A stretch of DNA of 14,478 nt from a virus (lineage: Duplodnaviria; Heunggongvirae; Uroviricota; Caudoviricetes). This document shows positions 6,147 to 7,088 of the stretch, piece by piece (positions within the stretch are counted from its first letter, which is position 1; each line of letters starts with the position of its first letter). Both the position numbers and the translations under genes were made by a program. The notes beneath the pieces were generated by a model that saw only the letters and a program-made list of their open reading frames with translations, was not told the DNA's origin and ran no database searches. The stretch covers positions 1 through 14,478 of IMG/VR virus record IMGVR_UViG_2713896899_000013, one strand, 5' to 3'.

Positions 6147-7088
6147 TCACCCTCTGAATCCTGCCGGGATCTGGCTGTAGTCCACGTTGTCGTAACTGGC
6201 TTTGAAGTACGGGTCCTCGCGTTTTTCGGTGTACGTGCTGACGGACGGCGATAAGCGCAGGGAAAGCTCATCCCATTTTTCCCGCAGCTTCGACGGGCTG
6301 AGCACGTTACGGCACCAGAACGGATCGCGGCTGACGCGGCTGTACATCTCGCAGATTTGTTTATGAGTACGACCATCCTGCACACACATCAGGCGAATTT
6401 CGTTTGCCCAGGCTGTCCAGTTCGGTTCTTTGGGACGAACCACCTCGCCGTCACATCCGGCGGCCTGCTCGTACAGGGCGATGATTTTTTTCCAGAGCCA
6501 CTGTGCGCAGGTCAAATCATCCTGCGTTCCCCACTGGCGCTTTTTAGGGCTGAATACAACCGCATCAGGATGGCGAGTTAAAAAATCCTGTTCAGCCGTC
6601 TGCATGTCCGGTTGCGAAGCGTCCGGACGAGAAGGTTTTTTATCTGACGGATCATGTTTTGATTTTACTGACGGATCCCCGCCAGATTCTGACGGGTGAA
6701 AACCCGCTTTTTTGCCAGATTTCGACGCATCAAATTTTGACGGGTCAGATTTTGATGCGTCAGATTTTGACGGGTCAGAATCTGACAGTTGAGAAAATGC
6801 CGCTGCCTGAAGCTTCGCAACGTTAAGCTGATAAACATTCGACGCATTGCGGTTACCCTGGCGACGCGCCTTACGCGTTAACCAGCCTTCTGCTTCCAGC
6901 CGTGCGATAGCCGTTCTGACGGTACTCATCCCCGCGCCAATCTGACGGGCAATGGTTTCAATTGATGGCCAGCACACACCTTCGTCATTACTGAAATCAG
7001 CCAGGCGGGCCATAATTGCCACGCTGGATAACTTCATGCCTGACGCAGCGCAACCATCCCATACATAGCCGGTTAATTTAGTGCTCAT
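6147..7088 (-). CDS. Replication initiator, lambda O-like (N-terminal winged helix, internal iteron array)
   Basis: N-terminal HTH region (SIETIARQIGAGMSTVRTAIARLEAEGWLTRK); a tandem 15-bp DNA repeat array inside the gene encodes DPSKSDASKSDPSKFDASKS; GAGG Shine-Dalgarno 6 nt upstream of the ATG at 7088. Confidence 0.7.
   Translation of the reverse strand: MSTKLTGYVWDGCAASGMKLSSVAIMARLADFSNDEGVCWPSIETIARQIGAGMSTVRTAIARLEAEGWLTRKARRQGNRNASNVYQLNVAKLQAAAFSQLSDSDPSKSDASKSDPSKFDASKSGKKAGFHPSESGGDPSVKSKHDPSDKKPSRPDASQPDMQTAEQDFLTRHPDAVVFSPKKRQWGTQDDLTCAQWLWKKIIALYEQAAGCDGEVVRPKEPNWTAWANEIRLMCVQDGRTHKQICEMYSRVSRDPFWCRNVLSPSKLREKWDELSLRLSPSVSTYTEKREDPYFKASYDNVDYSQIPAGFRG
6642..6790. repeat. Iteron array (candidate replication origin) inside the O-like gene
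   Basis: Five tandem 15-bp units in exact register starting at 6715, 6730, 6745, 6760, 6775 (consensus about TCAGATTTTGACGGG), plus three more loosely spaced copies at 6642-6697. Confidence 0.7.

What the first reader, a model, noticed from the sequence alone, without database searches (positions are those of the whole stretch)
6642..6790. Replication origin embedded in the initiator gene: eight iterons, five in exact 15-bp register
Tandem 15-bp repeats (about TCAGATTTTGACGGG) start at 6715, 6730, 6745, 6760 and 6775, with three further copies upstream. They are translated on the minus strand as a DPSKS/DASKS peptide repeat. This mirrors lambda, where ori iterons lie within O. No P, DnaC-like or DnaB-like gene follows, so the element may rely on host loading factors or the replication module may be incomplete.
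Basis: partly seen in the sequence, partly recalled or inferred. Interest (0 to 1): 0.5.

Follow-up and report, generated by a model that had tools for sequence, protein, structure and literature searches.

The report
Lambda-like replication origin inside initiator gene
The repeats are real and are very probably the binding sites and unwinding region of this prophage's replication origin, lying inside its initiator gene as in phage lambda; this is an ordinary arrangement for such phages, with one less ordinary detail: there is no helicase-loader gene, and the initiator ends in the same short tail as the host protein DnaT.

Summary
The window is the early region of an SfII/SfIV-like lambdoid prophage, running from integrase to Q. 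ORF 6147-7088 (-) is an O-like initiator: an N-terminal winged helix, a linker and a C-terminal helical domain.

**Observation.** It holds. Five 13-bp near-palindromes (GTCAGAtTcTGAC) sit at exactly 15-bp spacing (6714-6786). A sixth lies at 6681-6693. The other two "copies" are half-sites inside two 24-bp A/T-rich, GATC-containing repeats (6630-6677).

**Selection acts on the DNA.** This was tested in 80 homologous prophage loci:
- Synonymous codons are kept in 87% of cases in the origin block, against 43% in the DNA-binding domain.
- The two serines of each peptide repeat use fixed, different codons.
- Dyad-related bases covary.
- Copy number varies from 3 to 10.

**The repeats travel with the N-terminal domain.** A phage with the same C-domain but another N-domain carries different repeats. 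A phage with the same N-domain but another C-domain keeps them.

**No loader gene.** None lies between cII and Q. Across the homologues, the seven followed by a lambda-P-like, DnaC-like or unidentified 286-aa gene include all six whose initiator lacks a special C-terminal ending. The window's ending matches the last residues of E. coli DnaT.

**Verdict.** No experiment was available.

The parts
6147..7088 (-). Replication initiator gene (313 aa), O-like: N-terminal winged helix, repeat-bearing linker, C-terminal helical domain, short tail
   Evidence: ORF list and translation. PHROG 391 'replication initiation O-like' over residues 1-313, E 5e-136. Annotated as replication protein O or primosomal protein in SfII, SfIV and related phages at 98-99% DNA identity.
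6879..7022 (-). Winged helix-turn-helix (Pfam HTH_36, aa 23-70) within the N-terminal DNA-binding domain (aa 1 to about 95, 6804-7088)
   Evidence: Pfam HTH_36 E 4e-11, above the curated cut-off. Variants of the recognition-helix motif STVRT go with changed outer bases of the repeat.
6714..6786 (.). Five tandem iterons: 13-bp near-palindromes at 6714, 6729, 6744, 6759 and 6774, at exactly 15-bp spacing. Sense-strand family consensus GTCA(A/G)AATCTGAC.
   Evidence: The 15-bp register and the core are conserved in homologues, with 3-10 copies. Codon fixation. Dyad covariation.
6681..6693 (.). Sixth iteron (GCCAGATTCTGAC on the + strand), 33 bp from the array
   Evidence: The 33-bp offset and the sequence are conserved in homologues; many read as the perfect palindrome CCAGAATCTGG.
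6694..6713 (.). Spacer between the array and the sixth iteron, containing a run of six T (A6 on the sense strand)
   Evidence: Sequence. The hairpin predicted here is not kept in homologues.
6630..6677 (.). Two adjacent 24-bp direct repeats (6630-6653, 6654-6677), each holding a GATC, the half-site CTGACGG and an A/T run. Candidate DNA-unwinding element.
   Evidence: The least stable and lowest-GC 40-mer of the whole gene starts at 6630 (30% GC; lowest 0.2% of 40-mers in the gene). The nucleotide sequence, including synonymous sites and both GATCs, is nearly invariant in 66 homologues.
6606..6628 (.). Palindrome GTCCGG-N11-CCGGAC at the distal edge of the origin. It coincides with the recombination junction between the N-domain/origin module and the C-domain module.
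   Evidence: 61 of the 76 homologues listed have an inverted repeat of at least 5 bp at this position, mostly GGTTGC-n-GCAACC. L080 carries the compensated form GGTTCC/GGAACC. The junctions with mEp460_4F5 and phiNP fall between 6610 and 6646.
6234..6596 (-). C-terminal helical domain (about aa 165-285), no Pfam family. In other phages it is exchangeable with Phg_2220_C.
   Evidence: AlphaFold2 model with mean pLDDT 82; the domain residues are mostly above 90. No Pfam hit. The same domain occurs behind other N-domains, including a Phage_rep_O N-domain in P0120.
6150..6212 (-). Disordered C-terminal tail PYFKASYDNVDYSQIPAGFRG. The last nine residues match the C-terminus of E. coli DnaT.
   Evidence: BLASTP 8 of 9 identical to DnaT 171-179. 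The DnaT sequence was checked against PDB 9zbt_D. hhalign aligns only the tail (probability 80-86%, E 1e-5). pLDDT is below 50.
5656..6150 (-). Next gene, whose start overlaps the initiator stop (ATGA). PerC-like C-terminus. It is not a helicase loader.
   Evidence: Pfam PerC E 8e-9, PHROG 1324. A small gene overlapping the initiator stop in the same way follows in many homologues.

Best explanation
Positions 6606-6786 are the phage's origin of replication, placed inside its initiator gene as in lambda.

**Proposed mechanism.**
1. After induction, rightward early transcription (leftward in the window) produces the initiator.
2. Dimers of its N-terminal winged-helix domain bind the six 13-bp dyad-symmetric iterons (five at 15-bp spacing, one 33 bp further on) and build a nucleoprotein complex.
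3. The adjacent A/T-rich pair of 24-bp GATC-containing repeats (6630-6677) opens.
4. The host DnaB helicase is loaded without a phage-encoded loader. The initiator's C-terminal part probably recruits host proteins directly, and its DnaT-like tail is the best candidate contact.

**Status of each step.** Shown here: the repeats exist, they are under selection as DNA, and they travel and covary with the N-terminal domain. Also shown: the A/T-rich element is the least stable part of the gene, no loader gene is present, and the tail matches DnaT. Inferred: binding, unwinding, origin activity and the role of the tail.
For: **Identity of the gene**
- PHROG 391 over the full length and Pfam HTH_36.
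- Homologues of the same N-domain are followed by lambda-P (E 7e-62) or DnaC-like genes.

**Selection at the DNA level**
- In all 74 homologues tested, codon identity at conserved residues is higher in the 19-codon origin block than in the winged-helix domain (mean 87% against 43%; Wilcoxon p 8e-14).
- Serine before K uses TCA in 80% of cases, and serine before D uses TCT in 78%. Elsewhere in the same genes these codons account for 15% and 7%.
- In the array AAA makes up 97% of Lys codons against 59% elsewhere.
- Dyad-related positions covary: positions 2/12, T-A against C-G, odds ratio 9.7; positions 1/13, G-C against T-A, odds ratio 43.

**Specificity module**
- mEp460_4F5 has the same C-domain and the same downstream gene, but another N-domain and a different set of repeats. 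These are 23-bp-spaced units plus an A/T-rich 3 x 12-mer.
- phiNP has the same N-domain and the same repeats, but another C-domain.
- SfV has a third N-domain and a third repeat set.
- Seven of eight proteins with an altered recognition-helix motif have T at iteron position 1 in at least half of their units (with A at position 13 in four of them), against 1 of 59 proteins with STVRT-type helices.

**Anatomy like lambda**
- Iterons with dyad symmetry are followed by an A/T-rich tract in the middle of the gene (PMC3349717; PMC7466680).
- Copy number varies between relatives (3-10), as lambda (4) and Stx phages (6) differ.

**Function in vivo is plausible**
- The same gene at 98-99% identity is present in the isolated phages SfII and SfIV (PMC3851460).
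- A 37.7-kb circular record of this phage type, with no plasmid replicon typed, exists.
Against: - There is no experimental evidence for binding, unwinding or origin activity, for this element or for a close relative, in the literature searched.
- The A/T-rich tract is modest: 30% GC over 40 bp, only in the lowest 6% of the whole window. It is shorter and less extreme than lambda's 38-bp tract.
- A 15-bp period places neighbouring dimers on nearly opposite faces of the helix. This differs from lambda's wider spacing and leaves the geometry of the complex open.
- The homologues are related, and repeats homogenise within a gene, so the p-values overstate independence.
- The C-terminal domain has no detectable relative of known function.
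Confidence: 0.8

Rival explanations
1. The repeats are only a low-complexity, slippage-prone peptide linker (Ser/Asp/Lys/Pro) between two protein domains, with no role as DNA.
For: - The region encodes a disordered-looking SD(P/A)SK repeat.
- Copy number varies between relatives, as expected for slippage.
- Linkers of other initiator families are also repetitive peptides.
Against: - A peptide linker should be free at synonymous sites. Instead those sites are the best conserved in the gene.
- The two serines keep different fixed codons.
- Palindromic symmetry is maintained through paired base changes.
- The repeat set changes completely with the N-domain even though the C-domain is unchanged.
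Confidence: 0.05
2. The sites are bound by the initiator, but they serve mainly in regulation (autorepression, titration or handcuffing of the initiator, or exclusion of related phages). Replication starts elsewhere or by another route.
For: - Iterons have such secondary roles in plasmids.
- In lambda, plasmids carrying the oop-ori region block replication of infecting phages, and this needs the iterons (with oop transcription) but not the A/T-rich tract (PMC3349717).
- The A/T-rich tract here is modest.
Against: - No other repeat cluster of comparable quality exists between cII and Q.
- The conserved order iterons, A/T-rich repeats, palindrome recurs with different sequences in mEp460_4F5, which fits an origin.
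- Regulatory and origin roles are not exclusive.
Confidence: 0.1
3. The repeats are binding sites for another protein, for example the PerC-like product of the next gene, a host factor, or Dam/SeqA through the GATCs, and not for the initiator.
For: - Two invariant GATC sites lie in the distal repeats.
- A Dam gene follows close by.
- The downstream gene is translationally coupled to the initiator.
Against: - mEp460_4F5 keeps the same downstream gene, the same Dam and the same C-domain, yet has different repeats.
- The repeats track the N-terminal domain and its recognition helix.
- GATC is not enriched overall.
Confidence: 0.04

Closest known systems
ori-lambda within gene O of phage lambda (four 18-19-bp iterons plus a 38-bp A/T-rich tract; O binds through its N-terminal domain)
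   Same: - The origin lies in the middle of the initiator gene.
- The iterons are imperfect inverted repeats.
- An A/T-rich tract follows them in the direction of transcription.
- The N-domain and the iterons form one specificity module, separable from the C-domain.
- The gene sits after cII in the rightward early operon (PMC3349717, PMC7466680).
   Different: - The units are 13 bp at a 15-bp period, against about 18-19 bp units with spacers (87 nt for four).
- There are six sites plus two half-site repeats.
- The A/T tract is itself two GATC-bearing repeats.
- No P gene is present.
- The protein does not hit Pfam Phage_rep_O, and its C-domain is not Phg_2220_C.
Origins of Stx phages 933W and P27 (six iterons)
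   Same: A lambdoid origin inside O, whose iteron number differs from lambda's (PMC7466680). This parallels the 3-10 copies seen in this family.
   Different: Those phages keep lambda-type O and P genes and lambda-type iteron sequences.
'Initiator-solo' lambdoid replication modules (Weigel and Seitz, FEMS Microbiol Rev 2006; recalled from my own knowledge, the paper was not readable here)
   Same: An O-like initiator with no adjacent helicase-loader or helicase gene.
   Different: I could not check which phages or which sequence features that review lists.
DopC of Cellvibrionales and Oceanospirillales (a domesticated O-like protein: HTH_36 plus the DnaT C-terminal motif; PMC5509034)
   Same: An O-like winged-helix N-terminus combined with a DnaT C-terminal motif.
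   Different: - DopC is chromosomal and paired with a P-like gene (dopE).
- The authors found no iterons in it and concluded that it is no longer an origin.
- Here the iterons are present and no P-like gene is.
E. coli DnaT (primosomal protein I)
   Same: - The extreme C-terminus is shared: SQIPPGFRG in DnaT, SQIPAGFRG here.
- Relatives match over about 20 residues: RERDINAISRPDTSIPPGFRG against [20 protein letters not shown].
   Different: - There is no match to the DnaT DNA-binding domain PF17948 or to its N-terminal domain.
- DnaT does not bind an origin.
Iteron plasmids (RepA, pi, TrfA type)
   Same: Clustered initiator-binding repeats next to an A/T-rich region, with winged-helix initiators.
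   Different: - Plasmid iterons are direct repeats of about 17-22 bp, usually outside the rep gene and in helical phase.
- No Rep_3-type hit was found. The RP-C hit is weak and below its cut-off.

Membership tests
Lambdoid origin embedded in the initiator gene (ori-lambda type) | Several initiator-binding repeats with internal dyad symmetry inside the initiator ORF, between its N- and C-terminal domains | tested here: met
   Six 13-bp near-palindromes at codons 101-136 of a 313-codon gene. The dyad is maintained by covariation.
Lambdoid origin embedded in the initiator gene (ori-lambda type) | A/T-rich unwinding tract next to the iterons on the promoter-distal side | tested here: met
   The least stable 40-mer of the gene is at 6630-6669 (30% GC), directly downstream of the iterons in the sense direction. 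It is less extreme than lambda's tract.
Lambdoid origin embedded in the initiator gene (ori-lambda type) | Iteron sequence is specific to, and exchanged together with, the initiator's N-terminal domain | tested here: met
   Mosaic comparisons with mEp460_4F5, phiNP and SfV. Association between recognition helix and outer bases.
Lambdoid origin embedded in the initiator gene (ori-lambda type) | The initiator binds the repeats and the fragment supports replication | not testable with these tools
   This needs footprinting and a plasmid replication assay. No published test was found.
Lambdoid origin embedded in the initiator gene (ori-lambda type) | Adjacent helicase-loader gene (P, or DnaC-like) or helicase gene | tested here: not met
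   No such Pfam hit in any ORF from cII to Q. Some relatives with the same N-domain do have one.
Lambda O protein family (Pfam Phage_rep_O PF04492; architecture HTH plus Phg_2220_C) | Match to Phage_rep_O or to Phg_2220_C above the cut-off | tested here: not met
   Neither family appears for the window protein at E up to 0.01. Many relatives of the N-domain do carry Phg_2220_C.
PHROG 391 'replication initiation O-like' | Full-length profile match | tested here: met
   E 5e-136, residues 1-313 against profile positions 1-298.
DnaT (primosomal protein I) | DnaT DNA-binding three-helix domain (PF17948) | tested here: not met
DnaT (primosomal protein I) | C-terminal motif ...D.(S/T)xIP(P/A)GFRG at the very end of the chain | tested here: met
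   8 of 9 identical, terminal in both proteins. Profile alignment has probability 80-86%.
Iteron-plasmid Rep proteins (Rep_3 / RP-C) | Profile match above the cut-off, and direct 17-22-bp iterons outside the gene | tested here: not met
   RP-C scores 17.2 bits against a cut-off of 24.4. The repeats are 13-bp dyads at 15-bp spacing, inside the gene.
DnaD-like / replisome organiser | Profile or fold match to DnaD or G39P-type domains | tested here: inconclusive

The most novel reading that the evidence does not exclude
The DnaT-like C-terminal peptide (...IPxGFRG) may be a portable recruitment signal. It would let loader-less lambdoid initiators bring the host's DnaB-DnaC or its PriA/PriB restart machinery straight to a phage origin, doing the job that P or a phage DnaC does in other phages.

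The role of DnaT's own tail is not described in the papers read here. Under this reading it would have the same function, and it may share ancestry with these phage initiators.
Probability: 0.3. Interest if true: 0.65.

Novelty: new member of a known kind. Interest (0 to 1): 0.35.

Why it matters
**For annotation.** The result marks an origin that is not annotated in the SfIV record. It also gives a consensus for the element: GTCA(A/G)AATCTGAC at 15-bp spacing, followed by two GATCCGTCAG-plus-A-run repeats. That consensus finds the element in prophages across Enterobacterales.

**For biology.** The family is a natural experiment. One N-domain/iteron module is joined to different C-terminal ends. 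In six of the seven relatives followed by a P-like, DnaC-like or unidentified 286-aa gene, the initiator lacks both the DnaT-like tail and a second kind of extension. This makes a concrete question testable: how does a lambdoid phage without P load DnaB, and what does the conserved C-terminal tail of DnaT do? The 2026 preprimosome structure paper leaves open how DnaB/DnaC is recruited (PMC13377028).

Tried and rejected
- **Extra CTGACGG copies at 6916 and 6942, inside the winged-helix coding region.** The arginine codons that create them vary among homologues, so I do not count them as sites. The heptamer excess (11 against 1.25 expected) is only partly explained by the origin.
- **Terminator-like hairpin at 6693-6706**. 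It is not conserved in relatives and was dropped.
- **DnaA boxes.** No match with at most one mismatch lies inside 6147-7088.
- **GATC enrichment.** There is none in the window as a whole. Only the two origin GATCs are notable, because they are invariant.
- **Promoter inside the origin.** None was found by the consensus scan.
- **Rfam.** No RNA family matched in the window.
- **Literature.** No paper in the library describes this origin. The Weigel and Seitz review is not held.

Full report
**Context.** The window is the early region of a lambdoid prophage of the SfII/SfIV type.
- The initiator ORF is 98-99% identical in DNA to genes of Shigella phages SfII and SfIV and several E. coli phages. 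There it is annotated 'replication protein O' or 'primosomal protein'.
- The gene order, by Pfam, is as follows:
  - integrase (12886-14064)
  - cI-like repressor (8319-8993)
  - cro-like gene
  - CII-like gene (7433-7996)
  - an unknown ORF (7098-7436)
  - the initiator (6147-7088)
  - a PerC-like gene (5656-6150)
  - Dam
  - a LexA-like gene
  - RusA
  - KilA-N
  - DUF968
  - Q (2118-2477)
- The whole stretch in which lambdoid phages keep their replication genes is therefore in view.

**The observation.**
- Tandem Repeats Finder reports 6716-6779 with period 15 and period 30. The gap-free repeat search puts copies at exact 15-bp steps, with one more 33 bp away.
- The unit is a 13-bp near-palindrome followed by 2 bp. 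On the + strand it reads GTCAGATTTTGAC; on the sense strand the family consensus is GTCA(A/G)AATCTGAC.
- With up to three mismatches the unit occurs 17 times in the window, against 5 expected. Ten of these hits (both strands) fall on six sites at 6681, 6714, 6729, 6744, 6759 and 6774.
- In the frame of the minus-strand ORF the array reads SDSDPSKSDASKSDPSKFDASKS.
They are two adjacent 24-bp direct repeats (6630-6653, 6654-6677), each with a GATC and an A/T run.

**Is the DNA or the peptide under selection?** I fetched 80 genomic loci that encode relatives of the N-terminal domain. They are 52-100% identical and come almost entirely from Enterobacterales prophages, from Escherichia to Providencia and Pantoea.
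1. *Synonymous sites.* At residues identical to the window protein, the codon is also identical in 43% of cases in the winged-helix domain, so synonymous sites there are close to saturated. In the 19-codon block FHPSESGGDPSVKSKHDPS the figure is 87%. The block scores higher in all 74 comparisons. The alignment shows GAATCTGG, GATCC(G/A)TCAGTAAA and the second GATCC(A/G)TCAG almost unchanged across genera.
2. *Codon choice.* With units defined by the peptide alone, the serine before K/N/E uses TCA in 80% of cases and the serine before D/E/V uses TCT in 78%. Elsewhere in the same genes these codons make up 15% and 7% of serine codons. AAA is 97% against 59%, and GAC 69% against 48%.
3. *Dyad covariation.* With units defined by the inner core alone, the symmetry-related outer positions covary. 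Positions 2/12 show T-A against C-G (odds ratio 9.7). Positions 1/13 show G-C against T-A (odds ratio 43). Sub-lineages have TTCA...TGAA or TCCA...TGGA in place of GTCA...TGAC.

A peptide repeat has no reason to keep its coding DNA palindromic. The sequences are related and repeats homogenise, so the p-values are not to be taken literally. All three lines nevertheless point the same way.

**Link to the N-terminal domain.** Three phages give a clean mosaic test.
- mEp460_4F5 is 96% identical to the window from the stop codon up to about 6646, and it has the same downstream genes. Its N-terminal winged helix is unrelated. In place of the array it has four to six 23-bp-spaced repeats (GGTCAyTTTGACCCGATG) followed by an A/T-rich 3 x 12-mer.
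- phiNP has the same N-domain, and the repeat region is almost base-for-base the same although the gene as a whole is 83% identical. From about 6610 onward it has a different C-domain (Phg_2220_C type).
- SfV has a third N-domain and a third repeat set.
- Other initiator families that share the window's C-domain also have their own repetitive linkers, for example SELGGSN x 4.
- Within the family, 7 of 8 distinct proteins with an altered recognition-helix motif (STVIT, STVTT, STVYG, STIRG) have T at position 1 in at least half of their units. Four of the seven also have A at position 13. Only 1 of 59 proteins with an ST(V/I)R(T/S) motif does.

The repeats therefore belong to the N-terminal domain, and not to the C-domain or to neighbouring genes.

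**Anatomy of the element.** In the direction of transcription the parts are:
1. Five iterons at 15-bp spacing (6786 down to 6714).
2. A 20-bp spacer with an A6 run.
3. A sixth iteron (6693-6681), at a conserved 33-bp offset.
4. The two 24-bp GATC/A-rich repeats (6677-6630). These contain the least stable 40-mer of the whole gene (30% GC; lowest 0.2% within the gene, lowest 6% in the window).
5. A palindrome, GTCCGG-N11-CCGGAC (6628-6606). Most relatives have GGTTGC-n-GCAACC at this point, and one has the compensated form GGTTCC/GGAACC.

The recombination junctions with mEp460_4F5 and phiNP fall between 6610 and 6646. For lambda and Stx phages the literature describes the origin as lying in the middle of O. 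It consists of iterons that are imperfect inverted repeats, plus an adjacent A/T-rich tract where unwinding and DnaB loading occur. Lambda has four iterons and Stx phages six (PMC3349717; PMC7466680). The present element has the same parts in the same order.

**The missing loader.** No ORF between cII and Q matches P, DnaC/IstB or DnaB. The relatives fetched from the phage collection have the same loader-less layout, with the initiator followed by a methylase, a small PerC-like gene, RusA and so on. I classified 74 genomic homologues by the end of the initiator and by the ORF that follows it:

| Initiator C-terminal end | Number | Next ORF |
|---|---|---|
| GFRG-type tail | 47 | none is a loader in 46; DnaC-like in 1 |
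| Extension ending in ...IWKE... | 20 | none is a loader |
| Neither | 7 | lambda-P-like in 2 (PF06992, E 7e-62); DnaC-like in 3 (IstB_IS21); unidentified 286-aa ORF in 1; the seventh (L043) in fact ends ...GFRGATS |

This gives a Fisher p of 3e-7, uncorrected for relatedness. Only about 0.8 kb downstream of each gene was available, so a loader further away would be missed in the homologues. That limitation does not apply to the window.

**The tail.**
- The window protein ends in SQIPAGFRG. E. coli DnaT ends in [9 protein letters not shown]. I checked the DnaT sequence against PDB chain 9zbt_D; BLASTP gives 8 of 9 identical, terminal in both proteins.
- Relatives end in RERDINAISRPDTSIPPGFRG or QRDVNAISEPDNTIPEGFRG, against DnaT's [20 protein letters not shown].
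- Profile comparison aligns only these 20-26 residues (probability 80-86%, E about 1e-5).
- This explains the database name 'primosomal protein I'.
- A fusion of an O-like HTH with the DnaT C-terminal motif has been described for the domesticated protein DopC, in which no iterons were found (PMC5509034).
- The function of DnaT residues 154-179 is not settled. Removing them roughly doubles the apparent Kd for ssDNA and lowers cooperativity (PMC4132743). The 2026 preprimosome structures leave the recruitment of DnaB/DnaC open (PMC13377028).
- That the tail replaces a loader gene by recruiting host proteins is therefore an inference from the census.

**Rivals.**
- *A pure peptide linker* is contradicted by the synonymous-site, codon and dyad evidence.
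- *A purely regulatory set of initiator sites* cannot be excluded without an origin assay, but it does not explain the conserved A/T-rich repeats and palindrome.
- *Sites for another protein* are contradicted by mEp460_4F5, which keeps all the neighbouring genes but has other repeats.

**Novelty and score.**
- An origin inside an O-like gene, with dyad iterons and an A/T-rich tract, is the textbook lambdoid arrangement.
- Loader-less 'initiator-solo' modules were, to my recollection, classified by Weigel and Seitz in 2006 (not checked here).
- The O-like-HTH-plus-DnaT-motif combination has been published for DopC.
- Specific to this element are the sequence and tight 15-bp packing of the iterons, the GATC-bearing A/T-rich repeats, and the relation between tail type and loader gene.
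- I rate it a new member of a known kind, of modest interest.

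Noticed in passing
window 6150-6212 (-); L011-L090: The initiator's C-terminal tail matches the C-terminus of E. coli DnaT. Across 74 homologues, only one of the 67 with this tail or an '...IWKE...' extension is followed by a loader-like gene, against six of the seven classed as having neither (the seventh, L043, in fact ends ...GFRGATS).
   Followed up: yes
window 6650-6653 and 6674-6677; Dam gene 5003-5689: Two GATC sites inside the A/T-rich repeats are invariant in 66 homologues. The phage encodes its own Dam. In many relatives a DNA methyltransferase gene directly follows the initiator, overlapping its stop codon. 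This may mean methylation control of the origin, as at oriC or P1 oriR, but it was not tested.
   Followed up: partly
window 5656-6150 (-): This gene overlaps the initiator stop (ATGA). It has a PerC-like C-terminus and an N-terminal half of unknown function (phrog_23071; weak MarR-like hit). Small ORFs of about 140-160 aa overlap the initiator stop in the same way in many homologues. A role in replication is not excluded.
   Followed up: no
window 7098-7436 (-): A conserved 112-aa ORF of unknown function (phrog_1170, no Pfam hit) lies between the CII-like gene and the initiator. It is also present upstream of the unrelated N-domain initiator of mEp460_4F5.
   Followed up: no
window 8283-8303: Perfect 8-bp-arm palindrome CTTGTACC-ttaac-GGTACAAG between the cro-like gene and the cI-like gene. 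It is probably an operator of the immunity region.
   Followed up: no
window 9038-9076: A 20-bp direct repeat, two copies (AATGTACCCAAGAGAAACAT), lies just downstream of the repressor gene.
   Followed up: no
window 3596, 3701, 5502 (-); 6238, 6916, 6942, 7208, 10509 (+): The heptamer CTGACGG occurs 11 times, against 1.25 expected. Only three copies lie in the origin. Those at 6916 and 6942 sit on codons whose synonymous positions vary in homologues, so they are probably not sites. The rest are unexplained.
   Followed up: partly
L091 (NZ_CP081716.1, 37,667 bp circular 'plasmid' of E. coli CX04): A record filed as a plasmid, with no plasmid replicon typed, carries phage genes (holin, DUF968, KilA-N, RusA) around this origin. 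It looks like a circular copy of this phage type. Similar records of 41-64 kb exist.
   Followed up: partly
L002 1995-2167 (phage mEp460_4F5): A different initiator N-domain has its own origin layout at the same place: four to six 23-bp-spaced repeats and an A/T-rich 3 x 12-mer (TATTCTCTGTAG), followed by the same GTCCGG-N11-CCGGAC palindrome as in the window.
   Followed up: partly
L065 (E. coli ECDA1023) and L060 (Rouxiella badensis): In L065 the initiator reading frame continues after codon 79 into unrelated sequence (a 456-aa fusion ORF). In L060 it stops at codon 142, just after the sixth iteron. Both look like decayed prophage copies.
   Followed up: no
proteins P0001-P0120: Most database copies of this protein's C-terminal half are 'partial' proteins from contig ends. 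The gene therefore often sits at assembly breaks, as expected for modules repeated among several prophages in one genome.
   Followed up: no
window 1196-2080 (+) and 304-852 (+): Two ORFs lie beyond Q on the opposite strand to the early genes. One has an ion-channel-like C-terminus (Ion_trans_2, E 3e-5) and the other is DUF2441. They are candidate cargo genes.
   Followed up: no
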